DNA of 64,000 nucleotides from a virus. Taxonomy: Duplodnaviria; Heunggongvirae; Uroviricota; Caudoviricetes. The notes under the pieces are model-generated. The model was not told where the DNA came from and made no database searches. It was given only the letters and a program-made list of their open reading frames with translations. Where the stretch lies: positions 1 to 64,000 of the IMG/VR virus record IMGVR_UViG_2799112923_000002. One strand, given 5' to 3'. Within the stretch, counting starts at the first letter, position 1; each line of letters begins with the position of its first letter. Below are positions 1,014-60,145 of this stretch, in pieces. The translations under genes were made by a program, and so were the position numbers.

Positions 1014-1212
1014 TTTTCTACTTTAAGATTAGTTATTTTACAATACATGTACTTATAGTCCTATTATTTTCCGGGCAAATATAATAATTTATTTTGATAT
1101 TTCCAAATTTTACACTTGTAATTTTGAAAGAAAATTCTTATATTTGTGCCAAAATATAAAATATAATGAATTATGAACGAAAAGATTGAATATTTAATAA
1201 ATGTTAATGTAA

Positions 1213-1962
1213 ATGGACAGTAAAAATAAATTTGATATTGAAAAATTTAAGCATCTAGGTAAATACATGAACTATGAGCTCAATATGCCTAATTTTAAAG
1301 AAATTAATGGAATTATATATAAACTTTGTACAAAATGTAAGAAATATAAACCAATGACGGACGAATATTTTTACAAAAGATCAAATGTTAAATGCGGATA
1401 TAATTCCACTTGTAAAGATTGTGAGAAAGAAAAAGAAAAATCTAGAATAAGAGTTCCTTCATTTAATGATAAAGGTGAATTATATTGTCGTACATGTAAA
1501 ACATACAAGCCTGTATCTGAATTTTATACTGGATCCGGAATAAAGTGTAGAGAAAATTATTCACTGGAATGTAAAGAGTGTGAAAGTAAAAGAAAGAAAA
1601 TTGCTTGAGCTTCAAAACAAAAAGACAATAAAGAATTTTTCTTAAAACACTTACTTTATGGTTGTAAAACACGAGCTTTAAGAGAAAAACTTCCATATAA
1701 TCTAGATGCAGAATTTATAGCACAATTATATAATGAACAAAATGAAAAATGTGCCCTCAGTAATTTAAAAATGTCAACTACTGTTCAGTCTGGAAAGAAT
1801 CCATACAATGCATCAATTGATAGAATTGTTCCAGAATTAGGATATATAAAAGGGAACGTACGACTTGTATGTTCTCACGTTAATATGATGAGATCAAATT
1901 TAGAAGATGAACAATTAATTAAATTTTGTAAAGCAATTATTAATTATGCAGAATCAAAGTAA
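1213..1962 (+). CDS. HNH endonuclease with N-terminal CxxC zinc-ribbon repeats
   Basis: ORFs 1213..1608 and 1771..1962 are in one frame joined across TGA (1606-1608) read as Trp; C-terminal SIDRIVPELGYIKGNVRLVCSHVN is a typical HNH motif. Confidence 0.6.
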
Positions 1963-2211
1963 AATAGAATCATTATTAGCTTTTTTGAAGAAAGGTAATA
2001 AAATAAAAATAAAACCAGAAAATAAAGGCAAATTTTCTTCTTATTGTGGTGGAAAAGTTACTGAAGCGTGTATCCAGAAGGGTTTACATTCTTCAAATCC
2101 CGCAACAAGAAAGAGAGCCAATTTTGCTAGAAATGCAAGACGTTGATCAAAGAAACATCAGTTTGGTGGAATTATAGATGAACCTATTGTTAAATCACTT
2201 ATAAAATGATA
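1946..2211 (+). CDS. Small basic protein (reads through two TGA=Trp)
   Basis: ORF 1946..2146 extends to a TAA at 2209-2211 when TGA=Trp. Confidence 0.3.
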
Positions 2212-2692: not shown

Positions 2693-3352
2693 AATGTTAT
2701 AGAATTAAAACCAGCCGTGGTTACAGGTTATAGATTTTGAATATTATTAGATAATGGACATGCTAAATCAACCCCTGGAAAACGCTCCCCTAAGTTTGAA
2801 GATGGAAAGCAATTTTTTGAATATGAATTTTCAAGAGATATTGTAAAAAGAATTTCTTTAGAACTCGAAAAATTAAATATTCCTTATAAAATAGTTACTC
2901 CAGAAGTAGATCAAGATATAGCTTTGACTACTCGAGCAAATAGAGTAAATAGATATTGTTCAAAATTTGGAAAGAATAACTGTTTATTAATTTCTGTTCA
3001 TGCAAATGCTGCAGGGATGGGAGATAAATGAATGAATGCTAGAGGATGAAGTGTTTGAACAACAAAAGGAAAAACAAAATCAGATGAATATGCAGATGTT
3101 TTTTATAAAGAGGCAGAAAAACTCCTACCTTTATATGGAATGACTTTAAGAAAAGATCTTACAGATAAGGATTATGATTACGAATCTGATTTTACAATTC
3201 TTTACAAGAGTTGATGTCCTGCAATATTAACAGAAAATCTTTTTCAAGATAATAAAATAGATTGTGAATTTTTAATGTCTGAAAAAGGACGCGAAGTTAT
3301 TGCACAAATTCATGTAAATGCAATAAAAAAGATTGTAATTGGTGAATCTTAG
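2687..3352 (+). CDS. N-acetylmuramoyl-L-alanine amidase (Amidase_3-type endolysin), 221 aa with five TGA=Trp
   Basis: Manual translation gives LLISVHANAAGMGDKWMNARGWSVWTTKGKT...AILTENLFQDN, matching conserved amidase_3 blocks only if TGA=Trp; ends at TAG 3350-3352. Confidence 0.8.
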
Positions 3353-3384
3353 TTTATATTAACAAATTAAAAATTAAATAATTA

Positions 3385-3564
3385 TGGCAAAAACAAATGA
3401 TTTAAAAGTCCTACACGAAGCTGTTGTAGGCCGCACTATTCCAATGGAAATGGATTTTGATCCCAAAGAATTATCAGATCAGTATGCACACACACCATAT
3501 GTTGATCCTAAATGTAAATTATATGGTATGCCTGATGCTGAAGAATCACAAAGTGAAGGATAAT
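3385..3564 (+). CDS. Small hypothetical protein (59 aa)
   Basis: ATG...TAA ORF between the amidase and the membrane protein. Confidence 0.3.
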
Positions 3565-3568
3565 AATT

Positions 3569-3838
3569 ATGTTTAAACTTTTAAATGCTATTGGAAAAGA
3601 CAAGTGGATGCATTTCACACTTAGTCTTATATTAATGCAATTAATTTATGCTGTATTATCAGCTGTTGGTCTTGGCGTATATGCTATTATACCAGCACTT
3701 GTTGTTACAATGGCTGTAGGTATAATAAAAGAATTTAAAGATAAGAAAGAAACAGGTCTTTTTGATCATCATGATATTGTTGCAGATTTTCTTGGATGCT
3801 TTACAGCAACAGTTATCGCTTCATTATTATTAATCTAA
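3569..3838 (+). CDS. Putative holin (small two-transmembrane protein next to the endolysin)
   Basis: 89 aa with two hydrophobic helices; position after the amidase; terminator follows at 3860-3890. Confidence 0.5.
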   Translation: MFKLLNAIGKDKWMHFTLSLILMQLIYAVLSAVGLGVYAIIPALVVTMAVGIIKEFKDKKETGLFDHHDIVADFLGCFTATVIASLLLI

Positions 3839-3859
3839 ATGATTTAAAAATAAAACAAA

Positions 3860-3890
3860 AATCCCGACTCAAAAGAGCCGGGATTTTTTT
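3860..3890. terminator. Rho-independent terminator (aatcccg...cgggatt + T-run)
   Basis: 7-bp GC-containing stem followed by tttttttg. Confidence 0.6.
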
Positions 3891-4124
3891 GTTAAAAGCG
3901 TCTGTGAGAAGCTTTTAAATAATATTAAAAATATTAAAATTTTTATAATTGAGTACCATCATATAGACAGACTCGTTACGAATCATCATATAGACAAAAC
4001 TTTTGAGAAATATCTTATAGACTCTCCTCAATTACAAAGATAAATATTTTTTTTGAAAAAAGCAAATTTTATAGAAAATTATTTTACATTTTTAAATCCG
4101 CCATAAAATATAAGTTTCTGTACT

Positions 4125-5075
4125 TTATGCGGTTTCTATAGTCCAGCCAGAAGGAATACCGTTGTCACCAGTTACATCCCAGTCAGCTAAAGTAGATTTC
4201 ACGAAAGTTCCGGTGTCACTAACTCCAGATACCCATCCGCCAGTATAAGTGCTTGACGGTGTGGTTGTAAACAACGCTTTTATATACGAAAGATTATTGC
4301 AATCGTAAAACATAAATTCATAGCAATAATTTACGAGCGTAGTTGCCGGAAGAACTGGAGCTTCGATTAAGGAAGTGCATCTGGAAAACATATTCGCATA
4401 GCATTCTCTTGCGAGCGTAATTGCCGGTAATTTTGGAGCAGCTACCAAAGAAACACAGCGATTGAACATATTTGCATAGCAACTTTCTGCAAGCGTCGTC
4501 GCCGGGAGCACTAGCGGACTTCCATCTTTGCTTAATACCCACGAATAGCTAAGATCCCTATAATAGTCTGCGAAGAAATATGCAAAAGCGTATCTTTCTA
4601 CTGAGTTCAAATCCTCAAAGTTCGCCTTTCTAATCAAAGACATAATATTCCCATACACATAACATGGCTTGTTTGACCAAAAATTACAATTATTAGCAGC
4701 AAAACCATAACCCTCAGAATAATATCCATATGAAGAATTATTCCCTCGGATTAGAACTTTATCTCCAGAATTAAGAGAAGCAATCGTTGCGCCGCGAACA
4801 CCATCGTCCGTAACGACAGCTTCCACTTCTATTCATGTCACTCCATTATCAGTAGATACATCTACCTTCAGAGGAGCAATACCATCAGATTCAGCTAAAG
4901 CTGTTTGCCGGAAATAAATCGTTGTACCATCTTGTGTGGCTTCTATAGTAAATGGAACGAGTAGATCCCCGTATACTTTTTTACGAAGGTCGTCAATCTT
5001 ATTTTTGACAAAGGTCTCGACTTCCTTATAGGTGTGCCCGTTCCAGGGCTCTTGTAATGTGTTTATTGTACTCAT
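4125..5075 (-). CDS. Tail fibre / receptor-binding paralog A with BspA-like LRRs (about 316 aa, one internal TGA=Trp at 4833-4835)
   Basis: ORFs 4833..5075 and 4125..4826 are joined by TGA; shares the FTIEAT...PLKVDVSTDNG N-terminal block and the YIKALFTTTP...GWV...GTFVKS...SGWT C-terminus with 5088..6677 and 7564..9315; repeated LPATTLA..CY..MF..C.SL units. Confidence 0.7.
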
Positions 5076-5087
5076 ATTTTCTTAGTT

Positions 5088-6677
5088 TTATTCAGTTTGA
5101 ACGGTCCAACCGGAAGGAATTCCGTTTCCACCAGTAACATCTCAAGCGGCAGAAGCAGACTTAACAAAGGTGCCGGAAAGACTTACACCTTGTACTCAGT
5201 TGTAAGTGTAAGTATTGGAAGGAGTAGTGGTGAACAACGCCTTAATGTATGAAAGATTTCTGCAACCATCGAACATTGTGTTATAGCAGTATGGTGCCAG
5301 TGTAGTAGACAATAGCTCCGGTGCAGTAGTTAATGAAGTACAGTTTTGGAACATAGAATCATAACAGCTGTTTACTAATACTGTCGCAGGAAGTTCCGGT
5401 GATATAGTCAACGAAGTGCAATTTCGAAACATACGTCTATAACAGTTGTCTGCAAGTGTCATTACAGGAAGTTCTGGAACAGTTGTTAATGAAGTACAAC
5501 CCTGAAACATACCTGAATAGCAACTATCTGCAAGTATCGTTGCAGGAAGTTCTGGAACAGTCGTCAATGAAGTACAACCAGAAAACATATTATTATAACA
5601 ACCATTTGCTAATGTCGTTGCAGGAAGATTTGAAACAGTTGTCAATGAAGTACAACCACGAAACATGTCTCGATAACAAAGTTTTTCAAGAGATGTTGCT
5701 TTGAGATCAGGAGTTTTAATTAACGAAATACAATTAACAAACATATTACTATAACAACTAACTGCCATTGTAATTGCTGGTAATTCTGGAGCAACGGTTA
5801 AAGAACTACAACCAACAAACATAGCTGAATAGCAATAACTCTCAAGTTTCATTACTGGTAATTCCGGAGCAGCAAGCAATGATGTACAATTCTGAAACAT
5901 ACCTGAATAACAAGAAGGTGCGAGTACTGTTGCTGGTAATTCTGGAGCAATTGTTAATGAAGAACATCCTCTAAACATATTACTATAACAACCTAATGCG
6001 AGTACAGTCGCTGGTAATTTCGGTGTAATAGTTAATGAAGAACATCCTCGAAACATATCACCATAACAATTCTTTGCAAGTGATGTTGCAGGAAGAAGTA
6101 TTGGACACTCATTTTTATTTAGTACTCAAGACCAATCTGGATCTTCATCATAGTCATTGTAATCAGAGAAAAAGTATGCAAAAGCATTTTTTCCAATCGA
6201 CTGTAATTTCTCAAAACCTGTTTTTCTGATTAGAGACATCATGTTGCCATATACATAACATGGTTTATCTGCTCAAAAATGACAATGATATATGTCCCTT
6301 TCAGCAGATCCTGAAAAACACCCATATGCAGAATTGTTACCTTTAATTATTATTTTGTCCCCAGGATTCAAAGAAGCAACGATACTGCCTGGAATACCAT
6401 TCTCTGCAGGAGCTGCGGTGATCTCCCTTCATGTCTGTCCATTATCAGTAGAAACATCTACTTTTAGTGGATCTAATTCGTCATAAACAGAATCAATAGA
6501 CTGTTGAAAATATATTTTTGTGCCGTTCTTAGTAGCCTCGATGGTAAATGGTCTCTTCTCGGGGTATTTCTCATACATCTTTTCTCCGCCCTTTTCCCAA
6601 AGATCCCTAAAAGCATCCTTCACATATTTTTCTACTCCAGAGTAGTCTATGTCTTTCCAAAGTTTGCTATCTACCAT
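5088..6677 (-). CDS. Tail fibre / receptor-binding paralog B with BspA-like LRRs (about 529 aa, several TGA=Trp)
   Basis: ORFs 6429..6677, 5196..6056 and the C-terminal piece TYTYNWVQGVSLSGTFVKSASAAWDVTGGNGIPSGWTVQTE join when TGA=Trp; TAA stop at 5088-5090. Confidence 0.65.
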
Positions 6678-6679
6678 AA

Positions 6680-6799
6680 CTATTCCTCCTCTTCGGTTAA
6701 TATTTCGTCCAGCTGCTCTAACTGATCCTTTATGAAATCCTCTATCTCCTTAAAGGTATGTCCTTTCCAGGGTTCATCTAAATTTTGAATCATACTCAT
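6680..6799 (-). CDS. Small ORF (39 aa) homologous to the extreme N-terminus of paralog A, abutting the start of paralog B
   Basis: MSMIQNLDEPWKGHTFKEIEDFIKDQLEQL vs paralog A MSTINTLQEPWNGHTYKEVETFVKNKIDDL; TAG stop at 6680-6682 lies 2 nt from the paralog B ATG (6675-6677) in another frame. Confidence 0.45.
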   Translation of the reverse strand: MSMIQNLDEPWKGHTFKEIEDFIKDQLEQLDEILTEEEE

Positions 6800-6818
6800 A
6801 GTAATTTTATTAAATTAA

Positions 6819-7458
6819 TTAAATAATTCCAATTCCATAATAGTCTCCTTCTTCACCAGAAATCTTAATTGGCAGAACATCTGATCATAAAGACTCTGAG
6901 ATTCCTTTATAAGTAGCATTTTTTAGATTTGTATTTTCTCTTGTCCACTCTGGATTTGGAATTCTTAGGCCTAGGCCAAAATGTCTATTAAAACTGATAC
7001 CATTATTATCTAAAAAGTCATATAGTTCGTCATAGGATGTATTACTATTAAAGACGAAATATTCGGTTGGAATACTTCCAGAAGCTACACATCATCCTTT
7101 TTTAGATCTAGTATGTATAGACACATCTTCGTCTGAATCATATTCCTTTTTTCTGTTATGTTTAGCGTAATGCAAAAGAACAATCTCTGCACCTTCGTAA
7201 TTCATTAATGGATGATATACTTCATATCTTCTATCTCCGTGTTTTAGATCTCCTCTAATAGTTAATGTAGGAGCAGAGTTAAGAAGACTTAGAGCATCAA
7301 TATCTCCACCACTCTTTCCAGGTCAGACCAATTTATCATCTCAAATATAAGGATCTAGTCAAGCGATATAAGGTTCAGTTGCAGTAAGTCGTTCGTTAAG
7401 ATTCTGAATTATATACCTTCTATGAATAGCGTCGTAAATAACTTTTTTATCGTTCATG
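6819..7458 (-). CDS. Tail-associated protein sharing the N-terminal anchor module (MNDxKxIYDAIH) with 7564..9315; about 212 aa with five TGA=Trp
   Basis: Manual reverse translation MNDKKVIYDAIHRRYIIQNLNERLTATEPYIAWLDPYIW... ends TAA 6819-6821; no ORF is listed here because of the TGA codons. Confidence 0.5.
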
Positions 7459-7563
7459 CTTATATAAATTTTAAAATAGTGTCTGTGAGAGGCTTTTTGT
7501 TAGTAATGTTTTTATTTCTTAGATTATTTATTGTTGTGCAATCTGTGATATAGTTGTAAAATG

Positions 7564-9315
7564 TTAAAATTCAAAAAATTCAACTCTACTTTCATCCCCG
7601 GCCAATTTAATCCGGGCCATGAAACCAATTTCACTAATTGAATCTCTTGACCCAAAGACAAATTCGACACCCGTAGCAAACAGATAACGACATGATTCGT
7701 TTAAACAGTAGTACAGGATTTGATCATAATTATAACGCAATAAAATGTTCCGTTTTTCGTCAACCAAATTCCGCATCTCATCATAAGAAACGGATTTTCC
7801 GTCAATCTTAAAACAACTCAATGCCGTTTCCAACGATAGATCTCTTTGGTTATGAAATTCTTCCAAATCAATGATAATTGGATCTGAAATGCCGATATTC
7901 TCTCTAATCTGCTCTTTCTGTGCTTCTGTAAGGCTCATTGGTGCAGTGGTGACAGGCACATTTCCTGTACTCTCACCTTCTTTGACTGTCCAACCGGAAG
8001 GAACCCCATCATCGCCAGTAACAGACCAAGTTGCAGATGCAGACTTCACGAAGGTACCGTTTGCCGCGACGTTGTTCACCCAGCCACTTGTGTAGGTGTT
8101 CCCCGGCGTTGTGGTGAAGAGCGCCTTGATATACGCAAGGTTCGTGCAGTTGAAGAACATATAGTTGTAGCATTCGTTCGTAAGAGTAGTGGCGGGAAGC
8201 TCAGGAGCAGCAGTCAGTCCCGTGCAGCCCTCAAACATACTGCCGTAGCAGGCCTCCGCGAGCGCGGTGGCGGGTAACGTAGGCGCAGCGGTTAACCCAG
8301 TGCAGTCCCTGAACATATTGGAGTAGCATCTATTCGCAAGAGTAGTTGCTGGGAGTTCTGGAGCAGTAGTCAGACCAGCACAATGGTCGAACATTTGGTT
8401 GTAGCAAGACTCCGCAAGAATAGTAGCGGGGAGTGCGGGAGCACTTGTAAGACTCGTGCAGCCCTGGAACATACTGTAGTAGCAGCGTTCTGCAAGAGTG
8501 ATGGTGGGAAGCGCGGGAGCAGCGGTCAAACCAGTACAACCGGAGAACATCCAGGTATAACATCCCAGTGCGAGAGTAGTAGCTGGAAGTTCTGGAGTGC
8601 TCGTCAGTTCAGGGACACTTTGGAACATACCACAGTAACAGAACTCAGCGAGGGTAGTGGCAGGAAGCAGAAGTGGATCTTCCTCGTCGAGCACAACCCA
8701 CGGCTCGAGTTCTGAGTTATAATCCGAGAAGAAATATGAGAACCCATAATCCGCAACTGTGCGAAGTCTGGCAAAGTCATCCCCGCCAACAAGCGACATA
8801 ATATTACCTGACACCTTGCATTCATGGTCAGCCCAAAAGTTGCAGTTATCAACCGCTTCGCCCTCCGAATCAGAAAGATACCCATAAGCCTGGTTTCGTC
8901 CACGGATAAGAACCTTTTCCCCAGCATTAAGGGAAGCAAGGGTTGCACCAGGTACATCATCTTCTGCAGGGGCAGCTGTAACTTCAGTCCAAGTTGCACC
9001 ATCATCGGTTGAAACCTCGACTTTTAGAGGGTCCAACCCATCATTTACTGCATAATCAGATTGACGGAAATAAACTGTAGTCCCATCTTCAGTAGCTTCG
9101 ATGGTAAAATATTCCTTATACTTATCTAAATCAACACCCACTTCATTAGCCAGTTCAGTAACCTTATCATTAACAGCTTTAGCGGTAGGATACTGTTCAT
9201 TAGATTCAGTTACAGTTGATACCTTATTACTTTTATCTTCCTTTCTAGTCAATGAATTCACAAGATCTTTATATTTCTTATGAATGGCATCATAAATAGT
9301 TTTTATATCGTTCAT
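7564..9315 (-). CDS. Tail fibre / receptor-binding paralog C (583 aa) with BspA-like LRRs; GC-rich LRR core contains no TGA codons
   Basis: Single uninterrupted ORF; N-terminus MNDIKTIYDAIHKKYKDL; middle 7870-9000 is markedly GC-rich with repeated LPATTLA..CY..MF..CTGLT units; conserved C-terminal block. Confidence 0.8.
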   Translation of the reverse strand: MNDIKTIYDAIHKKYKDLVNSLTRKEDKSNKVSTVTESNEQYPTAKAVNDKVTELANEVGVDLDKYKEYFTIEATEDGTTVYFRQSDYAVNDGLDPLKVEVSTDDGATWTEVTAAPAEDDVPGATLASLNAGEKVLIRGRNQAYGYLSDSEGEAVDNCNFWADHECKVSGNIMSLVGGDDFARLRTVADYGFSYFFSDYNSELEPWVVLDEEDPLLLPATTLAEFCYCGMFQSVPELTSTPELPATTLALGCYTWMFSGCTGLTAAPALPTITLAERCYYSMFQGCTSLTSAPALPATILAESCYNQMFDHCAGLTTAPELPATTLANRCYSNMFRDCTGLTAAPTLPATALAEACYGSMFEGCTGLTAAPELPATTLTNECYNYMFFNCTNLAYIKALFTTTPGNTYTSGWVNNVAANGTFVKSASATWSVTGDDGVPSGWTVKEGESTGNVPVTTAPMSLTEAQKEQIRENIGISDPIIIDLEEFHNQRDLSLETALSCFKIDGKSVSYDEMRNLVDEKRNILLRYNYDQILYYCLNESCRYLFATGVEFVFGSRDSISEIGFMARIKLAGDESRVEFFEF

Positions 9316-9331
9316 ATTTATATAAATTTTT

Positions 9332-9358
9332 AAAATAGCCCCATATAGGGGCTATTTT
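9332..9358. terminator. Bidirectional hairpin terminator (tagcccc-atata-ggggcta) flanked by A- and T-runs
   Basis: Perfect 7-bp inverted repeat between convergent/adjacent minus-strand genes. Confidence 0.55.
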
Positions 9359-9361
9359 GGT

Positions 9362-12300
9362 TTACGGTGTATTTAATGTCTCTCAGTTACCATTATTGTA
9401 ATACTTTATTCCAGAACTGTCTATCTTTAGACCATAAGTTCCATTCGTTAAGAATTCTAATGTTAGAGAATTGTTTGTATTTACAACCTTGAAGTAATTA
9501 TTTGCATTTATACCATGTATGAATCCATTTGCTCCAATTTCAGTAAATTCTACTAACGTTGATGCAGCTGTATGATGGTTTATAATCGGATCAAATGTAA
9601 CTCAGTTTAGATAAACCTCTGGGTTATATATTCCAGAAGGAAGTCCAAATTGACCGTCCGTCATAAGCATTAATTCTGCTTTAACATACATCGTATAATC
9701 ACCTCCTGTTATAGGGAACGCTTCATTATCTATATCAGAAGAATTAGCTCTCATATCTACTGTAAATGGATCACTAGATAATGTAAAATGATCATAATGT
9801 TCTTCAAATGTAGTTAAATCCTCCTCTCCTTCATGTTGATATCATTCCTGAACTATAGCACCTGTGTTTTGATTAACAGCATAAACATCTAAACTAACAC
9901 TACATTGAATATTGTGTCCAGTAACAACTTCTTCTAAACCTTGACCTTTAAGATGAACTGTTCATTGTTGAGGGATATTTTCGGAATAAATTAAGTCTCT
10001 TTGTGTTCCAGATGAAACAGCATTAATATGAACCGTACCTAATGTATAAGTTCCTTCAAAGTATGCGGGTTGTCCAGAATATGCTGAATCGTCTATTACA
10101 GGTCCACCTAAGAATTCATTACCAGGAGAAGTTCCAACAATAATTTGTTTATGATTATCAAAGTTAGTAGAAACATCTTCTCCAGATATCTTACATCTAG
10201 TTTGCCCATCTTGCTGTAAATTTATTACATTGTTCATAATATCTAGAGTTTCTCCATTATTATTACTTGTATGTAATTCTTTTACAGATAATTGATTTAC
10301 ATCAATTTGATTGGCTGCAATTTTATCTGAAAGTAAAAGTTTTGTTGCTACAAAATCCCAACCAACAGCTTGAACAAAATACTCTGTAAGTGTTGAAGGA
10401 TTTGAATTCGCAGTAATTGCAGAACTATCATATGGAAGTTTTTTCTTACATCTCCATAATCTATCTGCATTAGATGCTGCATTTGTTATAGTAATACCTT
10501 CATCAGCAACAGGCCAAATAGCGACATCATAATATGCAGCATTATCTTCTTCTCCAGAATACCATCCATCTTGGCCTTCTGCATCAGGATATGTATAACT
10601 TGTAGATCAGTTACGCATTCTCAGCATAGGACCAGCATGTCCATTTTCCCCAGCAGTACTAATGAGTTCATATTTAATATCTTGTAATGGTGCTGAAGTA
10701 TATACTGTTACAACTTTTTTCCATAAATATTTATATGTATTATCGGAAGGTTGTGAAGGAATAGTAGAACTTCATCCAGAAGCACTCTCAGCAGGATGGG
10801 AAGTTCCGCTATTGTATCACATATAATAATTAGTAACACTAACTATACCACGTCCATCATCACCAGGAGTACCAGGAGTACCATTAGAAACAATTGTTAC
10901 AGGAATGTCTTCTGGACCGTCTTCGATAGTACCTCCAGTTTTAGCAGTTGCTAAAAGTAAATGAAGATCCTGAATATTGGAATTCATGTTTAAAGGATAA
11001 GACTTGCTAACATCTGTCCAATTAACATCAACTGTACTACCGTCATATAAAAAGACTTTATATCCAGATGGCATTGCCGATGCTATTGCGGTACTTCCAT
11101 CTACATAAGATTCCTTCATAACTTTGACATTGATATTAACTTGTGAAGGAGAACTTGTTGTAGAATTATATACTATTGCTGCTGGTGTGAAGTCAAGATA
11201 ATAATTATCTTCTCCGATTTTCTTTCCAACTTCAAACTGTTTATAATAATGTGCATCATTATATGAGGCTTCAACCATTGCAATAGCACTATCAGCATTA
11301 GCTAAAATACCGGTTAATAAAACATCACCATTGGTTTTAATATATACAGTATTTGCGGCAGGATTTGCAGGAAATTCTGAAACAGCTGTTCCACCATTGC
11401 CAGCATAAACACCAGATACATTACTAATCGCTCATGTAACATTGCTTGCTAATGAAGCACCGTCATATAATCTTGCGGTTGTTGTAGAATTTCTTCTACT
11501 TATCTTAGTTCCATTATGATCATAGATTAATTCATCTTTATCGTTTGTAAAGTCGATGCGTATAGAATTTTCTCCACGAACTCTGGCAATATGCCAATCT
11601 TCCCATACACCATTTACTTTATTACATGTAGCCATCCATAACGGATCAACAATAGAATCATCATCTGCTCATACTCCTAAATTATGACTGCTACAATAAT
11701 TTCTCCATGCAGTTTCATCTATACCTTCTGGATTTGCATCGGTAACATAATTATTTAAACTAGGAAGTTGAGTAGATGCACCATCTTGAAGAATTGATGC
11801 AGAATATTCTACTTGGAAACGATCAGTGTCGGCCATTTTACTTGGAGAACTTCAAGTTGTACCTGATTGTCCAAATACTCTTTGTGTCATCCAAACTGTT
11901 CCGTTTCCAGCAGGAACAGAATCGTACCATGTTACAGTATGCTGCACTCCTCCTTTAGTATAACTGGAAGGATTTGGAATAGGATTACTTTCACTTCCAC
12001 CTTCGATTACTAACGCTGGACTTAGAGCAAGAAGATTTTCATTTGTTCTTGTAAATGCAAATGCTGTAAATATAGAAGCATCTACATAAGCTCATTTATT
12101 CCATAACTTTGGTTCGGAATACCAACTCCATACTTCATCTCTATATTTTCTAATAGAAACAAATTCCAGAGGTTCACTTGCACTAACATCTGATGGATCA
12201 TCTGTTCAATTCCTGTCCCATCCTAATGATTGAGGAACAGGATAATCACCTGGAATAAATTCGTCATTTTGATAAGCCTGTAATGCCAATTCATCAGAGA

Positions 12301-13381
12301 TTCCAGTTAAACGTGTAACTGCAAGATATTGATCTCTGCTCATTGGGGGAAATACTGTACTATCAACAAGTGTCCATGATCCATCTTCATTTTGTCTACA
12401 TTGATCTGGAGCAACAACATGGAAAATGTATTCTATACCATCTCCGTCTGTACCATCTTGTCCTCATACAGCTCAAGGCATAGGGCCAATAAACTCACCT
12501 CATTTTCCTGTAGTTTTATTTCTTTTTCTTGTGCACATTGCTTCTACAGGATAGACATCTGGATCTATAGCATTTGGCTGATCGGATCATCCTGCGGGAA
12601 TGTAATCATCTGTATCTGGATCAGAATAAGGAGTTTCTGCTCTAGAAACATCTTCTACACTATGAAATAATTTATAAATAAATTCAGTATTATCTCCATC
12701 TACACCATTGCGTCCATCTTTTCCATCTTTTGCATAATTTATACAAACTGGATCGGATCATTGGCCAACTAAGTTACCATCAGATGCTAAGAATGTACCA
12801 GTAGAAAGCCATGTAAACGAACCTGCTTGATGATGATTGTTGTCATCTCAGTAAACAATATCTCCTGTTGCAGTTCCATTTTTTCTAACTATGGACGTTA
12901 TTGGTTTCTCTAATACATTTAATTCTGGATCTCAATGTCCACCTTGTGGTGTATCTAATTCTACATCTCTGTCTGGCCATTCACCATAAATTAAAAAAAC
13001 TCTTGTGGAACCTGGTTCAATTCTAGGTTGAGAACCGCCTTCTCCAGTAGAATAAATTAATACTGGTTCTGTTCATGGGACATATACTTTTTCTGGACCG
13101 ACTATTGTGTATGTCATCCAGATATCATCTGTTAATCCGTCTGGTGTAGATCATCCAGAAGGATAATCAGTTGGATTATTAGAACTCATTACTTTTGTAG
13201 GAGTGCTTGGTTTCTCTGTAGAAGATTTAAATACAGGAATACAACTTACAGCATTATTTCCATTTATAAGTTTAATTCTTTCTGCATATTCTTCTGGAGA
13301 AACACACTCATCTACATCAACTCCCATTTCAATTATAGAGTTTCTAATATCACTAAAAATGTGTCTTAATTCTTCAATCAT
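9362..13381 (-). CDS. Large tail fibre/tail spike protein (about 1339 aa) with collagen-like GTPGTPGDDG motif; many TGA=Trp
   Basis: ORF fragments 13151..13381, 11432..11635, 10817..11278 and 9962..10237 lie in one frame and connect through TGA codons; TAA at 9362-9364; ATG at 13379-13381. Confidence 0.6.
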
Positions 13382-13383
13382 AA

Positions 13384-14889
13384 TTAATATTTATTATAAT
13401 AAGGTGAGGATTTTCAGTCTTGAGGACCTTTATATTGAGAATAATCTACCTGTCTTCCATATTTATCTAATGATGGTCAATTTCAGTCATATTCACCTAA
13501 TGCCATAGCTCTTCTTGCAGCAGAACGTACTCCAAGTCAACCATTTGCAGATTTTGAATGAGTCATATGCTTTACTAATTCCTTTGGATCAGTAATACCA
13601 GAATTAATCATGTTCATTAAATTTGGACTACCTTTTATTGTACCAACTACACCTTTTCCGTTATAAGATGTGTCGACTAATGCCAACTGTACATTTCTTG
13701 GAAGATTTTTAAAATTTTCGACTCTATTCGTTCACTCATCGTATTCAGCTTGCAATTTTCTTTCCATCTCTTTTCTTGCAATCTCTTCAGTAAGTTTTCC
13801 TTGTTTAGCCAATTCTATAATTTTAGGATTGGCACTTCCATAACCTGCTAATGTTTGTGGTTTTCCTTCTGATGTATTTAATATATATGCATCGGGACGA
13901 AATGTTTCAAAACTACCTGTAAATTTAGCAAGATCTGCAATAGTTTTTTCTGGTGTAACAGTAACTTCTGGTAATTCGATAGCCGGTTCATTTGCAATAA
14001 GATTATATTGTCTTTGATAACCTTTTGGTTTTTCTTGTATTAACATCATTGGATGATGTTCTTGTGGCTGCCAGAATTGAATATCTGTTACGTGAGAATT
14101 GTTTAAAGTTGGATTTGATTCCACTTTCTTTCCGCTTTGTGTTCTTAAAATACCACCGCCTTTATAACCCATTACTTCTAATGCAGTTTTACGTCTTCTA
14201 TCAGAATGATTATTAAATGTTTTTCCATACATCTCTTTATGTTTCGCATCGTACATTCTTTCTATACCGCTTATAATACTTTGAATGTTATTCTTATTAA
14301 CATTTCTGTGATTAGCTGCAGTATACATGGCATATGTATAATCAGAAGCTTCTTCTGGAGTTTCCGCAGTACGCAAAGCTGCTAAAAATTCTGGATACTT
14401 TCGTTGTATTTCATCCATTGCGAAATCTAATTGAGATTGTAATGAATTGCCATGACTGTTAACTCAATTAACATAATCATTATGTCTTTTTCCAGTTCAT
14501 TGTCCAATTCCTATTCCATATTGTGATGAACTAACTGAAGAATTTTTACCAGCTTTTTCTGCAGCATTTTCAGCATTTGTATTTAATCCTGATTCCGATA
14601 GAAGATTTGCAATAATTCCAGATGATTGTGCCTTGGTTAAGCCAAGTCCGTTCATTAAATAATCTCTAGCTGTTCTGCTCCTACCTTGTCTAGAAGAATC
14701 GTTTCAATCGATAGAAACTACAGGTGTTTGTACAACAGTTTCTTTTAATTCCGGTAATGGCGCCAGTGATATTTCTTCTTTTGGTTTTTGAACACTTTTT
14801 ACAATAGGTATATCGAAATTATCCGGTTCTATTGGTTTAAATTGTGTTTGTATTTGATTTACATAAGGTGTGTACTGTATCTGTGCCAT
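13384..14889 (-). CDS. Tail-associated peptidoglycan hydrolase / tape-measure-like protein (about 501 aa, several TGA=Trp)
   Basis: ORFs 14704..14889 and 13732..14418 plus a manually translated C-terminus to TAA 13384-13386; contains GLGLTKAQSSGIIANLLSESGLN resembling the phage tail lysozyme motif (GIxGNxxxESG). Confidence 0.55.
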
Positions 14890-15145: not shown

Positions 15146-18100
15146 TTACTTTAATTTAATATGAATTTTACCTCCATTCTCAAACTGAGTATCGTATAAT
15201 TCATTTTGTCCGGTTAGTGGATCATAATATTCATATAACCCATTTTCTGTCATTCCAATAAACCGAAGTCTTCCTATAAATTCATCACTGTCTTTGTTTT
15301 CGCCGGTAAACTCGCTTATGTGAAAACCACCATTCATTCCACCAGCGAGTGATCTTGGAATATAAATATATCTACCGTCCTTTCCAATTCTTTTAACTAA
15401 AGAGCTATCTCTAATTAATTGTTTTCCATCACCTCGTTGTCAATTACGAAGCAGTGTTCTACCGTCTTTATCCCTGGTTTAAACGCAGTGATATAGGTTC
15501 TTGTGGAATCATCTCTTTTTATCCAAGGTGGTAAACCATTATTAGGAGTTCCTTTTTGGGCTTTTAAGATTCCACCTTGTTTTCTATATATTAATCTACT
15601 ACCTCATTGTGGTTTTATTCTAAAATCATAAGGTAAGAGATGTTTTGCATTACGAATATTAAAATTCGGAAGAGCATAATAATCAAATTCAAAGTGTTCA
15701 TTTTCTCTTAAAGGAGAGTATGCATCTGATTTTAGTAAACCTTGACCTTTTGATTCAGCATCAGTTAGAATCTGTCTTATTCTAGTCGCAGATTGATTTC
15801 TATCAACATATGGTGAATTTTTAAATTTCGGTACTCCGTTTATATCTATAAATTCACCTCCCATTTCCGGAGATATTTCAGAACTAGCATTTCTTATAGA
15901 CGGAGTTCTAACAACAAATGCGTTTATATCGTTACTATTCGGTTTTGCTAATTCAGAAGAAATCTTTCTTCTTCTTATTTGTTGGCCATACATATTAAAA
16001 GGTTCTGATATATCGTAACTCAAATATTTTTCAGGAATATTTATATCAGCACCTTGTTGTCTAATTTTGTTTCCGTTTCAAATAATTCTTTCACCTGTAG
16101 CAGAAGGAAATACTGTTGTTGCTCCTCCAGGATATTGATGTACATAATGAATATATCTTTCAACACCTTCTCCTGGTCCGCCTAATTGTCCAAGAAATAA
16201 ATTACCAAAAGAGTTATCCATTGATCCTGTGCCTTTTGCCAAACTTTCAGGTTCTGCTACTTTTCTTAAAGCCGGAAACCGTTTAGTATCACCTCTAAAT
16301 AAAACTAAAGGTTCCCCAACTTCATTTCTAGCAGCGGTATTTCCACCAAGCTCTAATGCTTTTTTGTAAAGACTCCCAGCAATTTCATCATCTGTAATAT
16401 TAGTGTTTCTAACTAATCCATATCGTTCTCTTGCTTCTGGCACATATTTGCGAAGTTGCTCTATAATTTGAGAGTTTTCTGGAATCTCTGCAGTTCCATA
16501 TTCTTTGAACATTTTTACAGCATCCTCACCTTGTAGATGTTTTCTAGGAAGTTTATATCCCATCTGATGTAATTCATCTAATGTATATTTACCATTGCGT
16601 TCAAATTCAGTTATAGGTCTACTTAATGGTTTAACTTCCTTATTTAAAGCTCTTGCAACTTTATTTGCTTTCTGTGTAGCTGTTAATTCTTGTGCTACTT
16701 CCGGATTAATTCCCATAAGAGGTAACGCTGCCATAGATGCTCCAGCAATAGCCCCGGCAGCATCTCCAGATTTTACAGCTTCTTTTGCTTCTCGAATACC
16801 TTGAGCACCTCATGTAGCTAATAATCCTGCATCGGCATATGGGGAAATAGCAGTAGCCGCTTTAGCTACTTTTGGAAAAGTTTGTCCAATTCCTTTAAGA
16901 AGAGCACTTGGCATCATTTTTTCTCCAACCCATTCAAGACCTTTAGCTGTAGCAGGACCAGCACCTCTAAGAAGTAGAAGTGATCCTATAGGATGTTCTT
17001 CTTTTAAAGGTACTTCTGCAACTATACGTCCATTATCATCTCTAACGATTCCGTCATCTCTACCTCGCAAACTTTTTGTTACATTATCAAAAAGCTTTTG
17101 AGTTTGCCTATCTTGTTTTCTTCATCCCATTTAAGTTTCCTCCTTGCTTTTTTGAATATGTAATCAAATTATTAAAATCAATATCAGATATTTTAGTGTC
17201 TTTAAATGAAACGTCAATATCTGAATCAGAACCTTTTATTAAATCATATATAGTTTGCTTTCCTTTTCCGTTTAATTTATTGTTATAATAATCGTTTATA
17301 AGATTTTTGAAGCTTGCTTCTTCTTTATCTGTAGCAGTTTTAAAAATTTCATCAAATCAAGCTTCTGGTGCATTATCATATTGTGGACCCACATAATCAT
17401 CAAGCGTTGTCTCTTTTGCCCATTTTTCAAAAGTTGGAGCTTTTATTTTAAATAGCGAATTTACGACACCATCGTTTGTAGCAAAATGTACATTGTAATT
17501 ATCTATAGAAGATTTTGGTATTCGTTCAGAACCTCATGTCGTTCTAGTAACGACAGGTGTTCCATGAGAATCAACGAAATTTAAACCTCAGTTCACAAGA
17601 TTATTTTTGATTCCTCCATTTGCCCATCTAGCTTTATAATCTTTCGGCTGAAACTTTCAAATATCTTGTCTTCTACGATATAATCCACCTTCCCCAATAC
17701 CTTCTTCTACAATATGACCTCCGGCGTCAACTTGAAAACCTCCACTAGGAGTTCTAAAGATTAAATTAGAATTGTCATTTTTAGATTTTATAGGAATAAC
17801 CTTGTCAGTAGTAGGATTGTCCATTACATCATTACCTTCATACACTCTTATTTTCCCATATTTATGAGGATATTTTTTTCTAATATATTCATCGTGAATA
17901 CCATATTTTCCTTCTCCAGTTACTTCATGTAGTTCTGGAATTGGTTCATCATATAAGAAGGCTCTTACCATGTTTCCATGTCCGGTCTCTCCACCTCATC
18001 CGTTTACTCCTGATCCGAAATAAGAATTCATTGATCCGAGTATTTCGCCAGGTTGTTTACCTTTACCAGTAAAGATATATTTGGCAAAATCCTTTTTGCC

Positions 18101-18813: not shown

Positions 18814-19361
18814 ATTATTGTTTTTAGTTTATACAATTATTTTCGCAAATATAAACATTTAAAAGGAGAAATCCAAATAAAAGTGAGAAAATCCGAAATA
18901 AAAAAATGTGGATGTTATAGGGGTGGAAAGAGACACTACGAAATCGGCCCCCCGGCATGCGCCGTGGGAAAACCGATTTCGAGTGCAACCTTTGTCCAAT
19001 TCTTGGACGAAAGAAAAATAGGAAGCGAATGCTCCGCATCGCTTCTATTTCCAGAGTCCCGACCGTAGGTCAGCACGTTAAGTGCTGGCCACTGTCGTTC
19101 CCCTGCAGTTTAACTGCAACTCGCTAACGAGTTTCCGTTAGATACCGTAAAGTCGGCGGGAGTACCGACTTCCATAGGAGCGCGACAAGTCCGAACAAAG
19201 TCGTTAAGACAGCTTTACCGGAGAGAGAAACGAATTCCGGTCGGACACCTATGGTTGGACCATCTATGGTACAAATTAACGAGTTGCGTAAAACGCTGCC
19301 TTGGATAAGTAGCGTCTCATCATTCTGGGGAAGATGATGAGTTTAACTTCCAATCGCAAGG

Positions 19362-20054: not shown

Positions 20055-20145
20055 TTGTTGGTGATCCATTCGCATCAGCAAGAGTTATCGCTTTGCTCGC
20101 TGATGAATCCAAGCGATTCCATTTAATATAGACACAACTAACACC

Positions 20146-20415: not shown

Positions 20416-20418
20416 AAT

Positions 20419-59842: not shown

Positions 59843-59870
59843 TTTATTAATAAGTATCAATAAGTGTATA

Positions 59871-59960
59871 GGAGCTTAGTGTAACGGTAGCACACAGGTC
59901 TTCAAAACCTGGGTAGCGGCGTCCAAAACCGCGGGTGTGGGTTCGAATCCTGCAGCTCCT
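59871..59960 (+). tRNA. Suppressor tRNA, anticodon TCA (decodes UGA), about 90 nt with long variable arm; candidate UGA-to-Trp decoder
   Basis: Acceptor ggagctt/cagctcc, anticodon arm caggt-cttcaaa-acctg (perfect 5 bp, anticodon 59902-59904), extra-arm hairpin gcgg-cgtccaaaa-ccgc, T-arm GGGTTCGAATCC. Confidence 0.65.
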
Positions 59961-60145
59961 GCAGTAAAATACAATTATTATGGAATTTATATTTATTTAT
60001 TCGATTCCTTGTATCATAAGTTTTTTGCTTATGAATCAATGTTACAAGAAAAATTTATTAGATTATCCAATGCTTTCTGCATTAAGTTGTATTATTCCTT
60101 TTGTAAATTGGATTGGATTGGTATGTTTTATATGTAAATTAAAAA

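What the first reader, a model, noticed from the sequence alone, without database searches (positions are those of the whole stretch)
4125..9315. Tandem array of modular BspA-like LRR tail-fibre paralogs, one a mosaic with a GC-rich TGA-free LRR cassette
Three adjacent minus-strand genes (4125-5075, 5088-6677, 7564-9315) share an N-proximal block FTIEAT.DGT.IYF.Q...D.L.PLKV.VSTD.G.TW and a C-terminal block YIKALFTTTP..TYT.GWV....GTFVKS....W.VTGD.G.PSGWT. The number and sequence of the LPATTLA..CY..MF..C..L LRR units between the two blocks differ. A fourth gene (6819-7458) and paralog C share the extreme N-terminus MNDxKxIYDAIHxxY, probably the virion-attachment module. Paralog C's LRR core (7870-9000) is much GC-richer than its own ends and has no TGA codons, while paralogs A and B do. 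That suggests a recently imported receptor-binding cassette recombined into a native anchor. The arrangement looks like a host-range diversification locus.
Basis: seen in the sequence. Interest (0 to 1): 0.65.

Follow-up and report, generated by a model that had tools for sequence, protein, structure and literature searches.

The report
Swappable LRR tail-fibre gene array
A large uncultured cattle-rumen phage that reads TGA as tryptophan carries a row of fibre-like genes built from short shared "head" pieces and exchangeable leucine-rich-repeat binding modules, and one of them has demonstrably been swapped for a GC-rich, TGA-free cassette; this is a well-documented but not fundamentally new case of modular host-recognition gene shuffling.

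Summary
Read with TGA as Trp, four adjacent minus-strand genes lie at the end of the late operon: C 7564-9315, D 6819-7457, B 5088-6677 and A 4125-5075. A 39-codon orphan "head" lies at 6680-6799.

A, B and C share one module: a beta-sandwich N-domain with no solved relative, 3, 11 or 7 strict 26-residue BspA/PARCEL-type LRR units, and a C-cap.

C is a mosaic. GC3 is 0.24 / 0.56 / 0.33 along the gene, against 0.15 in neighbouring late genes, and it has 0 TGA among 7 Trp codons.

Sibling strains about 96% identical carry a different core between the same head and tail (3 repeats). A third relative lacks D, B and A altogether.

The same module occurs in Bacteroidia surface lipoproteins and T9SS proteins (GC3 0.54 in one) and in other phages.

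Best reading: a plastic tail-fibre / receptor-binding cassette bay, with cassettes imported from a standard-code, GC-richer pool that then gain TGA and lose GC. Paralog A's only TGA is still TGG in a sibling strain.

Virion location and receptor binding are inferred, not shown. I class it as a new variant of a known kind, of moderate interest.

The parts
7564..9315 (-). Gene C (583 aa, 0 TGA / 7 TGG). Mosaic of type-1 head + N-block + 7 LRR units + C-cap + linker + C-terminal tail domain.
   Evidence: The exact protein is found on independent ENA, Logan and NCBI contigs.
9112..9315 (-). Type-1 head of C (codons 1-68; MNDIKTIYDAIHKKY...KEDKSNKVSTVT..QYPTAKAV). GC3 0.22; 97-100% identical in sibling strains.
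   Evidence: The same head sits on proteins with unrelated distal parts (P0126, P0127). The motif is repeated in P0128, which carries the Pfam 'Phage tail tip domain'.
8674..9111 (-). N-block of C (codons 69-214): a beta-sandwich / jelly-roll-like domain that opens the shared module.
8134..8673 (-). Seven 26-residue LRR units of C (LPATTLAxxCYxxMFxxCTGLTxAPE).
7984..8133 (-). C-cap of C (YIKALFTTTP...GTFVKSASATW.VTG..GVPSGWTV).
   Evidence: The same cap closes bacterial homologues such as P0081.
7567..7983 (-). Linker (GESTGNVPVTTAPMSLTEAQKEQIRENIG) and C-terminal tail domain of C. GC3 0.33; 70-90% identical between strains.
   Evidence: The linker is shared with P0053, which has a different tail. 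The structure is poorly predicted.
8044..8868 (-). GC3-rich segment of C (codons 150-424, GC3 0.56): the compositionally foreign cassette.
   Evidence: Change-point analysis; 0 of 100 permutations reach the observed likelihood ratio.
7965..9106 (-). Segment of C replaced relative to sibling strains. The 5' junction lies at 9106-9045 inside FTIEAT..YFRQSDYAV; the 3' junction lies at about 7990-7965, after GWTVK.
6819..7457 (-). Gene D (212 aa, 5 TGA / 1 TGG): the first 15 residues of the type-1 head plus a non-LRR distal domain.
   Evidence: Homologues P0122-P0125 keep the C-terminal ~170 aa and vary the N-terminus.
9269..9338 (-). C copy of the shared 5' segment (upstream region plus first 47 nt of the CDS). 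Just upstream, at 9332-9358, is a perfect hairpin that directly follows the stop codon of gene E.
7409..7479 (-). D copy of the same 5' segment (82-83% identical to the C copy), preceded by a degenerate version of the hairpin.
6680..6799 (-). 39-codon orphan ORF encoding a type-2 head only (44% identical to the head of A). It lies just upstream of B and out of frame with it, and is identical in sibling strains.
   Evidence: It is called as a gene in L002-L004.
5088..6677 (-). Gene B (529 aa, 5 TGA / 4 TGG): diverged type-2 head + N-block + 11 LRR units + C-cap.
   Evidence: Pfam LRR_5 scores 41.3 bits (cut-off 27.7) and TIGR02167 scores 54.3 bits (cut-off 30). The body has GC3 0.18.
4125..5075 (-). 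Gene A (316 aa, 1 TGA / 6 TGG): type-2 head + N-block + 3 LRR units + C-cap. It is the last gene of the late operon.
   Evidence: Its head is 76% identical to the head of P0002, from a GC 0.49 phage-like contig. Codon 81 is TGA here and TGG in L003.
3857..3888 (-). Terminator-like hairpin that closes the array. It is the conserved right flank of the variable bay.
   Evidence: It is 97.5% conserved in L021, where it directly follows P0127.
59870..59962 (+). tRNA with anticodon UCA (opal suppressor), needed to read the TGA codons of A, B and D.

Best explanation
The region is the distal, highly plastic part of the tail / late operon of a roughly 167-kb, low-GC, TGA-to-Trp recoded phage. The phage comes from cattle rumen and probably infects Bacteroidia.

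Architecture. The region encodes four to five fibre-like proteins built on one plan: a short N-terminal head plus an exchangeable distal module.
- The type-1 head is on C and D.
- The type-2 head is on B, A and an orphan 39-codon ORF.
- In A, B and C the distal module is a small beta-sandwich domain, a BspA/PARCEL-type solenoid of 26-residue leucine-rich repeats (3, 11 and 7 units) and a conserved cap.
- The same three-part module is found in Bacteroidia cell-surface lipoproteins and T9SS proteins, and in other rumen/gut phages.

Cassette exchange (shown by strain comparison). Modules are exchanged by recombination within the conserved block-coding sequences. These are FTIEAT..YFRQ on the 5' side and GWTV plus the linker on the 3' side, together with the duplicated 5' leader.

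Origin and ageing (inferred from composition).
- Incoming cassettes come from a standard-code, GC-richer pool: host genes or GC-richer phages.
- They then drift to the phage's AT-rich composition, converting TGG to TGA along the way.
- This gives the order C core (youngest), then the A distal part, then B and D (compositionally native).

Function (inferred).
- The heads dock the proteins on the tail.
- The LRR concave face binds a host-surface ligand.
- The array therefore sets or broadens host range.
For: Recoding and late-operon context
- Code 4 roughly doubles ORF coverage in the first ~20 kb of the window.
- In-frame TGA codons align with Trp.
- A Sup-UCA tRNA is present.
- Plus-strand early genes carry almost no in-frame TGA: most have none, three have one or two.

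Position
- The array lies directly after a 1339-aa protein with a PHROG 'tail protein' hit and a lysozyme / tape-measure-like 501-aa protein.
- It lies directly before a terminator and the Amidase_3 lysis cassette.

Shared module
- establish the common N-block, repeats and cap.
- The LRR fold is of BspA type.

No export signal
- The phage proteins have hydrophilic N-termini.
- Bacterial homologues carry a lipoprotein signal (P0081) or a T9SS C-terminal domain (P0055) in chromosomal contexts.

Cassette swap at C
- document the swap against sibling strains.
- L021 carries a third allele, and D, B and A are absent from it.

Heads reused on unrelated distal parts
- P0126 and P0127.
- Adjacent genes sharing a head in another phage, L022.
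- The head motif occurs in a protein with the Pfam 'Phage tail tip domain'.

Homologues next to tail genes in other phages: L011, beside a 2444-aa protein and a Phage_tail_C gene, and L007, which has two adjacent module genes.

Composition
- GC3 is 0.15 in core late genes, against 0.56 in the C core.
- TGA/Trp ratios are 41/66 (core genes), 5/6 (D), 5/9 (B), 1/7 (A) and 0/7 (C).
- A TGA/TGG polymorphism in A was caught between strains.
- Bacterial homologue P0081 has GC3 0.54.
- The closest relative of the C core, P0130, shows the same contrast in a different low-GC phage: head GC3 0.27, core GC3 0.54.

Host clue
- Part of protein E resembles proteins of crAss-like and B. thetaiotaomicron phages.
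- Module relatives occur in rumen Bacteroidia MAGs.
Against: - There is no evidence that any of the four proteins is in the virion.
- PHROGs gives only an 'unknown function' family (phrog_9915), and Pfam gives nothing fibre-specific.
- The head and tail of C are poorly predicted, so no trimeric fibre fold is shown.
- LRR solenoids are not an established phage receptor-binding fold.
- No similar protein exists in about 50,000 GenBank phage records, so there is no characterised relative.
- No near-identical donor was found; the best is 77% aa on the N-block and 70-74% nt. Import direction and recency therefore rest on composition alone.
- Two cores about 30% diverged from each other both keep GC3 near 0.55 inside low-GC phages. 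This could mean that GC is maintained by selection or by repeated gene conversion, rather than reflecting youth.
- The heads of A and B are GC3-rich while their bodies are native-like, so a simple 'native anchor + foreign tip' rule does not fit all genes.
Confidence: 0.6

Rival explanations
1. The proteins are virion decorations or accessory adhesins that bind something other than the infection receptor, for example plant fibre, mucus or non-host bacteria. They would keep the phage where hosts are, rather than determine host range.
For: - The module is shared with bacterial surface adhesin-type proteins: a lipoprotein and a T9SS protein.
- In L021, D, B and A are dispensable at the strain level.
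- There are several copies with different repeat numbers.
Against: - The genes sit in the tail-distal position next to large tail proteins, not next to capsid genes.
- The heads carry a motif that also occurs in a tail-tip-domain protein.
- Allele turnover at C looks like that typically seen in receptor-binding proteins.
Confidence: 0.17
2. They are non-structural LRR proteins made in the infected cell, such as effectors that bind host proteins or counter-defence factors. Their variability would reflect an arms race with host defences.
For: - C has no TGA and so could be translated without the suppressor tRNA.
- There is no direct virion evidence.
Against: - The best structural and sequence matches are extracellular BspA-type LRR proteins.
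- Each repeat has two conserved Cys, as in secreted homologues.
- The genes lie in the late structural operon after the tail genes.
- There is no PADLOC family match.
- Homologues in other phages sit among tail genes.
Confidence: 0.1
3. The GC-rich, TGA-free core of C is not an import. Its composition would be explained by amino-acid content or by selection on this gene.
For: - The module is rich in Ala, Pro, Thr, Gly and Cys, and module genes are somewhat GC-richer than their surroundings in most loci examined.
- Two diverged cores (C and P0130) both keep GC3 near 0.55 in low-GC phages.
Against: - The contrast is at synonymous third positions. GC3 is 0.56 in the C core but 0.18 in the homologous body of B, which encodes the same kind of repeats.
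- Sibling strains carry a different, lower-GC core at the same place.
- The change points are sharp.
Confidence: 0.08
4. The mosaic is a metagenome assembly chimera that joins a phage contig to an unrelated GC-rich LRR gene.
For: The source is a metagenome assembly, and repeats and conserved blocks are classic chimera points.
Against: - The identical 583-aa protein and its flanks occur in ENA, Logan and NCBI assemblies of 56-167 kb.
- The reading frame is intact through all junctions.
- The alternative allele is likewise seen in four independent assemblies.
- P0130 shows the same architecture in another phage.
Confidence: 0.02

Closest known systems
Modular / branched receptor-binding protein systems of tailed phages (e.g. 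Klebsiella phages KP32, K11 and KP34: N-terminal anchor or conserved docking peptide plus exchangeable specificity module; PMC6872550, PMC13352976, PMC8262889)
   Same: - Several adjacent RBP-like genes lie at the end of the tail module.
- Short conserved N-terminal peptides are shared by neighbouring genes (C/D here; 11 of 15 residues).
- Distal parts are exchanged between close relatives at conserved junctions.
- The number of such genes varies between relatives.
   Different: - The distal module is a BspA-type LRR solenoid with a novel N-domain, not a beta-helix depolymerase.
- No T4gp10-like branching domain or any anchor domain was recognised.
- The host is probably Bacteroidia.
- Nothing has been tested experimentally.
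BspA-type leucine-rich repeat surface proteins (Pfam LRR_5; structures 4fs7 and 4fdw from Bacteroides ovatus, TpLRR 6mlx) and PARCEL / TIGR02167 26-residue repeat proteins (PMC2996958)
   Same: - The repeat period is 26 residues, with the conserved pattern LPxxxLxxxCYxxMFxxCxxL.
- B passes both curated HMM cut-offs.
- The C model superposes best on LRR_5 structures.
- Bacterial homologues with the same N-block and cap are lipoproteins or T9SS cargo.
   Different: - The phage versions lack any signal peptide, lipobox or T9SS domain and instead carry phage-type heads.
- A and C alone score below the HMM cut-offs.
- The dyad symmetry of the coding DNA that defines PARCELs was not detected.
Stop-codon-recoded (TGA to Trp) gut and rumen phages with recoding confined to late genes (Borges et al., bioRxiv 10.1101/2021.08.26.457843, e.g. 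the cattle 'Agate' clade; Zeta crAss-like phage Lera, PMC12386605)
   Same: - Low GC content.
[quoted passage not shown]
- About 25 tRNA genes, including both Sup-UCA and Sup-CUA, with TAG apparently unused.
- Genome of about 167 kb from cattle samples.
   Different: - Clade membership could not be tested, because TerL and MCP are outside the window.
- The point here is a within-operon gradient of TGA use that tracks the compositional age of imported cassettes. The papers read here do not describe such a gradient.
PARCEL / BspA-family ORFs noted in jumbo phages (Vibrio phage vB_VhaM_pir03, ORF200 and ORF287; PMC7765460)
   Same: Phage-encoded proteins of the DUF285 / TIGR02167 / BspA repeat class with no assigned function.
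   Different: - Those are giant single ORFs whose GC equals that of the phage genome.
- Here the genes are short and tandem, sit on fibre-type heads, and show demonstrable cassette exchange and compositional contrast.

Membership tests
Pfam LRR_5 (BspA-type LRR, PF13306) | HMM score above the gathering cut-off (27.7 bits) | tested here: met
   B scores 41.3 bits. C (19.2) and A (13.8) are below the cut-off on their own. Many homologues carry PF13306 precomputed.
Pfam LRR_5 (BspA-type LRR, PF13306) | LRR solenoid fold most similar to solved LRR_5 proteins | tested here: met
PARCEL / TIGR02167 26-residue surface-protein repeat | Tandem repeats of about 25-26 residues that score above the NCBIfam cut-off (30 bits) | tested here: met
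   The period is strictly 26 residues in A, B and C. B scores 54.3 bits; C scores 20.5, below the cut-off; A has no hit.
PARCEL / TIGR02167 26-residue surface-protein repeat | Dyad symmetry (palindromic character) of the repeat-coding DNA (PMC2996958) | tested here: not met
   There are no inverted self-matches within the LRR-coding DNA by the repeat finder or by blastn with word size 9. The test is insensitive to weak symmetry.
PARCEL / TIGR02167 26-residue surface-protein repeat | Membrane- or surface-targeting signal on the protein | tested here: not met
   The N-termini of A, B, C and D are hydrophilic and have no lipobox. Bacterial homologues do have one: P0081 has a lipoprotein signal and P0055 a T9SS C-terminal domain. 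This was read by eye; no predictor was run.
Phage tail fibre / receptor-binding protein (functional class) | Conserved N-terminal attachment part combined with a variable distal part among relatives | tested here: met
   The C head is 97-100% conserved while the core is replaced. The same head occurs on P0126 and P0127. D homologues vary at the N-terminus.
Phage tail fibre / receptor-binding protein (functional class) | Encoded in the tail module of the structural operon | tested here: met
   The array lies downstream of protein E (PHROG tail protein, E=2.8e-5) and of a lysozyme / tape-measure-like protein, and upstream of the lysis cassette.
Phage tail fibre / receptor-binding protein (functional class) | Presence in the virion and binding to a host-surface receptor | not testable with these tools
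   The phage is uncultured. There is no proteomic or structural data, and no similar protein in GenBank phage records.
Phage tail fibre / receptor-binding protein (functional class) | Oligomeric (usually trimeric) fibre or shaft region | tested here: inconclusive
   The head (residues 1-60) and tail (450-583) have pLDDT 27-66 in a monomer prediction from a shallow alignment. No multimer prediction was available.
Branched RBP systems with a docking peptide (Klebsiella KP32-type) | Short conserved N-terminal peptide shared by secondary RBPs | tested here: met
   C and D share MND.K.IYDAIH..Y, 11 of 15 residues. Adjacent genes in L022 also share a head.
Branched RBP systems with a docking peptide (Klebsiella KP32-type) | Primary RBP with a T4gp10-like branching domain | tested here: inconclusive
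   Pfam finds no family in protein E or in A-D other than LRR_5. No structural test was done.
Diversity-generating retroelement target | Template repeat / variable repeat pair and a nearby reverse transcriptase | tested here: not met
   No part of 4125-9400 has a second copy elsewhere in the window apart from a 50-nt AT-rich match. Only 64 of about 167 kb was examined, and no search for a reverse transcriptase was run.
TGA-to-Trp recoded phage (code 4) | In-frame TGA at conserved Trp positions, a suppressor tRNA(UCA), and recoding confined to late genes | tested here: met
'Agate' or Zeta crAss-like clade | Placement by TerL / MCP phylogeny | not testable with these tools
   The hallmark genes lie outside the window. 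Only general features match (PMC12386605; bioRxiv 10.1101/2021.08.26.457843).

The most novel reading that the evidence does not exclude
Rumen Bacteroidia phages repeatedly capture a complete host adhesin module from bacterial surface lipoproteins or T9SS proteins. The module is the uncharacterised beta-sandwich domain, the BspA/PARCEL LRR solenoid and the cap. The phages graft it onto tail-fibre heads.

In a TGA-recoded phage, each captured cassette then loses GC3 and gains TGA-Trp codons. The array would then be a dated record of successive host-range acquisitions. The newest cassette would be the only late fibre gene translatable without the suppressor tRNA.
Probability: 0.3. Interest if true: 0.65.

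Novelty: new variant of a known kind. Interest (0 to 1): 0.48.

Why it matters
Host recognition by the abundant uncultured phages of Bacteroidia is largely unknown. This locus offers a concrete candidate receptor-binding system of an unusual kind, an LRR solenoid related to the hosts' own adhesins. It comes with natural allele swaps that mark the specificity-determining part and the recombination joints, which is useful for predicting or engineering host range.

The locus also gives a within-genome view of how imported standard-code genes are absorbed into a recoded phage. TGG-to-TGA conversion tracks the decay of GC3, and one such change is caught as a polymorphism between strains.

The N-terminal beta-sandwich domain has 718 cluster representatives, no Pfam family and no solved relative. 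It is an uncharacterised family that deserves a name.

Tried and rejected
- GenBank phage records: megablast, blastn and tblastn of the region, the module and a neighbouring late protein found nothing. Protein E gave only weak partial hits to Bacteroides and crAss-like phages.
- IMG/VR: two distant module loci were found. There were no relatives of the C-terminus of E or of the head pattern.
- JGI metagenome scans with the C tail and with a degenerate head pattern were empty.
- A head+tail chimeric protein query did not return the known alleles. It did yield P0126-P0128.
- PARCEL dyad symmetry and DGR repeats were sought and not found.
- A defence-system reading was rejected: no PADLOC hits.
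- TAG recoding was considered because a Sup-CUA tRNA is present. In-frame TAGs only extend ORFs trivially, so it was rejected.
- The sigma-70 promoter scan was no better than shuffled sequence.
- In one search the first query sequence was mistyped by me, so that row should be ignored. The correct ORF 1213-1962 was rescanned and had no significant family.

Full report
**Context and genetic code**

With the standard code the region is broken into fragments. Allowing TGA as a sense codon roughly doubles ORF coverage in the first ~20 kb of the window. It yields a continuous minus-strand operon:
- H 17108-18811
- G 15415-17130
- F 13384-14889
- E 9362-13381
- C 7564-9315
- D 6819-7457
- B 5088-6677
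- A 4125-5075

The in-frame TGA codons of A and B fall on alignment columns where C and database homologues have Trp, so TGA encodes Trp.

Plus-strand genes beyond about 25 kb carry almost no in-frame TGA: most have none and three have one or two. The window encodes 25 tRNAs, including one with anticodon UCA at 59870-59962 and one with CUA at 41394-41466.

The window is identical to a 166,867-bp ENA scaffold (L001). Its record name, like those of its relatives, points to cattle-rumen metagenomes. This pattern of low GC, late-gene TGA recoding and both suppressor tRNAs is known from recoded gut and rumen phages (bioRxiv 10.1101/2021.08.26.457843; PMC12386605). Clade membership could not be tested because the hallmark genes lie outside the window.

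A, B and C share three elements:
- A ~146-150-residue N-block. A vs C is 55% identical (E=3e-59) and B vs C is 52% (E=4e-56).
- Tandem repeats with a strict 26-residue period: 3, 11 and 7 units.
- A ~50-residue C-cap.

D shares only its first 15 residues with C (11/15). At the DNA level the similarity runs from a hairpin that follows the stop codon of E, through the upstream non-coding stretch, into the first 47 nt of the coding sequence (82-83% over ~72 nt). The two gene starts are therefore copies of one segment. D's true coordinates are 6819-7457.

**Composition**

Neighbouring late genes E, F, G and H have GC3 of 0.146-0.155. D has 0.178, B 0.245, A 0.338 and C 0.414 overall.

A two-change-point fit of GC3 along C gives 0.235 (codons 1-149), 0.56 (150-424, window 8044-8868) and 0.333 (425-583). 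None of 100 permutations reaches this likelihood ratio.

TGA as a fraction of Trp codons is 41/66 in E-H, 5/6 in D, 5/9 in B, 1/7 in A and 0/7 in C. Fisher p is 0.002 for C vs E-H and 0.0002 for A+C. All seven Trp codons of C lie in the N-block, repeats and cap. A's single TGA (codon 81) is TGG in a sibling strain, which catches one TGG-to-TGA change as a polymorphism.

**What the module is**

Sequence family:
- B passes Pfam LRR_5 (41.3 bits, cut-off 27.7) and NCBIfam TIGR02167 'PARCEL repeat' (54.3 bits, cut-off 30).
- A and C are below the cut-offs on their own.

Structure:
- An AlphaFold2 model of C is very confident for residues 65-445 (pLDDT >90) and poor for the head and tail.
- A profile of the family finds the 4fs7 sequence at E=3.9e-5.

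N-block:
- It has no Pfam family.
- It matches 718 cluster representatives among 1.84 billion proteins, often several times per protein.

The DNA dyad symmetry that gives PARCELs their name was not detected.

**Where else the module occurs**

More than 8000 database proteins match, mostly through the repeats. The full three-part module is found in two settings.

Bacterial chromosomal genes:
- P0081 has a lipoprotein signal and a surface-protein N-terminus. It lies in a MAG with GC 0.55 and has gene GC3 0.54.
- P0055 is a double module with a T9SS C-terminal domain, next to ftsA/ftsZ and a hybrid two-component gene.
- Species-representative genomes with relatives are rumen Bacteroidia, Bacteroidaceae and Paludibacteraceae MAGs.

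Other phage contigs:
- P0022 lies on a ~104-kb contig beside a 2444-aa protein and a Phage_tail_C gene.
- P0053 follows a second module gene.
- P0002 has two modules fused, in a GC 0.49 phage-like contig. Its head is 76% identical to the head of A.

The phage versions have hydrophilic N-termini and no export signal. That argues against display on the infected cell surface.

**Direct evidence for cassette exchange**

Sibling strains L003, L004 and L005 are about 96% identical to the window across the operon, and 97-100% over most of D, B and A. They carry a 474-aa allele of C (P0062) with the same first 90 residues, the same linker and a homologous tail. Its core is different: it has 3 repeats and a different cap subtype.

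Nucleotide identity changes along the gene as follows:
- It falls from 97-100% to about 60% between window 9106 and 9045, inside the codons for FTIEAT..YFRQSDYAV.
- It recovers from about 7990-7965, right after GWTVK.
- It stays at only 70-90% through the tail.
- It returns to 96% near 7520.

The GC3 step at 8868 lies about 180-240 nt inside the 5' junction, so C contains at least three segments of different history.

A third relative, L021, has flanks 93.7% identical to the window. It carries a further C allele followed by P0127, which has a type-1 head and an unrelated 135-residue distal part. The terminator and lysis cassette follow directly. D, the orphan ORF, B and A (window 4125-7457) are absent.

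The region between the tail of C and the terminator at 3857-3888 therefore behaves as a cassette bay.

**Heads**

There are two head types.
- Type 1 (MNDxKxIYDAIH...KEDKSNKVSTVT..QYPTAKAV) is on C. A 15-residue version is on D, and fuller versions are on P0126 and P0127, which have unrelated distal parts. Its central motif is repeated in P0128, which carries the Pfam 'Phage tail tip domain'.
- Type 2 (..L.EPW.GHTYKEVE.FVK..I..L) is on A, in diverged form on B, on P0002, and on a 39-codon orphan ORF at 6680-6799. That ORF sits just upstream of B and out of frame with it.

In another phage fragment (L022), two adjacent genes again share a head.

This is the logic of modular or branched receptor-binding systems, in which short conserved N-terminal peptides dock exchangeable specificity modules (PMC6872550, PMC13352976). 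Here the resemblance is architectural only.

**Origin of the GC-rich core**

No donor above 70% amino-acid identity appears in the word-indexed search of 5.8 billion proteins. The exhaustive search found P0130, which is 77% identical on the N-block and about 86% on the cap. It shares C's unusual WAD(H/R)ECKVSG and NLAYIKALFTTTPG motifs, has 4 repeats and carries a different head.

P0130 sits in another low-GC phage fragment (GC3 about 0.22). It shows the same contrast as C: head GC3 0.27, core GC3 0.54. The two cores are only 70-74% identical at the nucleotide level.

The simplest reading is independent import of related cassettes from a GC-richer, TGG-using pool. The composition of that pool would match Bacteroidia homologues such as P0081. 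Maintenance of high GC by selection or by gene conversion is not excluded.

A and B show the reverse pattern at small scale: GC3-rich heads of 0.59 and 0.48, and native-like bodies of 0.19 and 0.18 (not permutation-tested).

**Mechanism and status of each step**

Shown:
- Code-4 reading of the operon.
- The paralogous modules.
- The BspA-type LRR fold.
- The compositional mosaic of C.
- Allele replacement at C, and gene-content variation of the array, between close relatives.
- The TGA/GC3 gradient and the TGG/TGA polymorphism in A.

Inferred:
- The proteins are tail fibres or receptor-binding proteins. This rests on their position after tail proteins E and F, the heads, the context of homologues, the lack of export signals, and a turnover pattern typical of such proteins.
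- The heads are attachment modules.
- Cassettes come from host genes.
- Compositional rank reflects order of acquisition.

**Rivals**

The rivals are an accessory adhesin for non-receptor substrates, an intracellular effector, composition set by selection, and an assembly chimera. They are weighed in the structured fields. The chimera idea is very unlikely because both alleles recur in independent assemblies with intact frames.

**Verdict**

Function remains inferred.

Mosaic, exchangeable receptor-binding genes and late-gene recoding are both known phenomena. Three things are new here:
- the LRR-plus-novel-domain module shared with host surface proteins;
- its use on fibre-type heads;
- the visible absorption of standard-code cassettes into a recoded operon.

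This is a new variant of a known kind, of moderate interest.

Noticed in passing
window 19300-21400: A second GC-rich island (GC 0.44-0.60, against about 0.32 around it) lies at the switch between the minus-strand late operon and the plus-strand genes. It has two TGA-free ORFs (19362-20054 and 20553-21161, + strand) with no Pfam, PHROG or GenBank-phage match. Sibling strain L003 has different DNA here.
   Followed up: partly
window 41394-41466 and 59870-59962 (tRNA array about 22-60 kb): There are 25 tRNA genes, including both an amber (CUA) and an opal (UCA) suppressor. Only TGA appears to be recoded: in-frame TAGs merely extend ORFs to the next TAA. The same 'unused second suppressor' is reported for the Zeta crAss-like phage Lera (PMC12386605).
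   Followed up: partly
window 15584-17129 (gene G, 15415-17130): Most of gene G (571 aa) is missing in sibling strain L003, where a single 697-aa gene replaces H and G. This is a strain-level indel or fusion in the late operon upstream of the fibre array.
   Followed up: no
window 1200-2040 (ORF 1213-1962, + strand, one in-frame TGA): This ~840-bp segment encodes a Cys-rich 249-aa protein. It is absent from L003, L004 and L005 but present in L021. It may be a mobile insertion in the lysis region; it has no significant Pfam family.
   Followed up: partly
window 6680-6799 (minus strand): A 39-codon ORF encodes only a type-2 head. It lies two bases upstream of B's start codon and in another frame, and it is identical in sibling strains. 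It is either a remnant of a deleted paralog or a small head-only gene.
   Followed up: partly
window 56689-56738 (+ strand) vs 9280-9327: This 50-nt stretch is 84% identical to the start of gene C and is in frame (NEIKSICDAIN vs NDIKTIYDAIH). It lies inside a 206-aa early-region ORF (56514-57134). It may be chance in AT-rich DNA.
   Followed up: no
window 4833-4835 (codon 81 of gene A): The codon is TGA in this strain and TGG in sibling L003. It is a direct example of ongoing TGG-to-TGA conversion in a recoded late gene.
   Followed up: yes
window 60146-61732 (+ strand): The phage encodes a chaperonin of the Cpn60/GroEL family (Pfam Cpn60_TCP1, E=1e-58) in the early region.
   Followed up: no
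L022 (Logan SRR12711331 contig), genes 2758-3117 and 3142-4461: In an unrelated low-GC phage fragment, two adjacent genes share an N-terminal head. The second gene (P0130) has a GC3-rich core closely related to the core of C. The head-sharing and GC contrast are therefore not unique to this window.
   Followed up: partly
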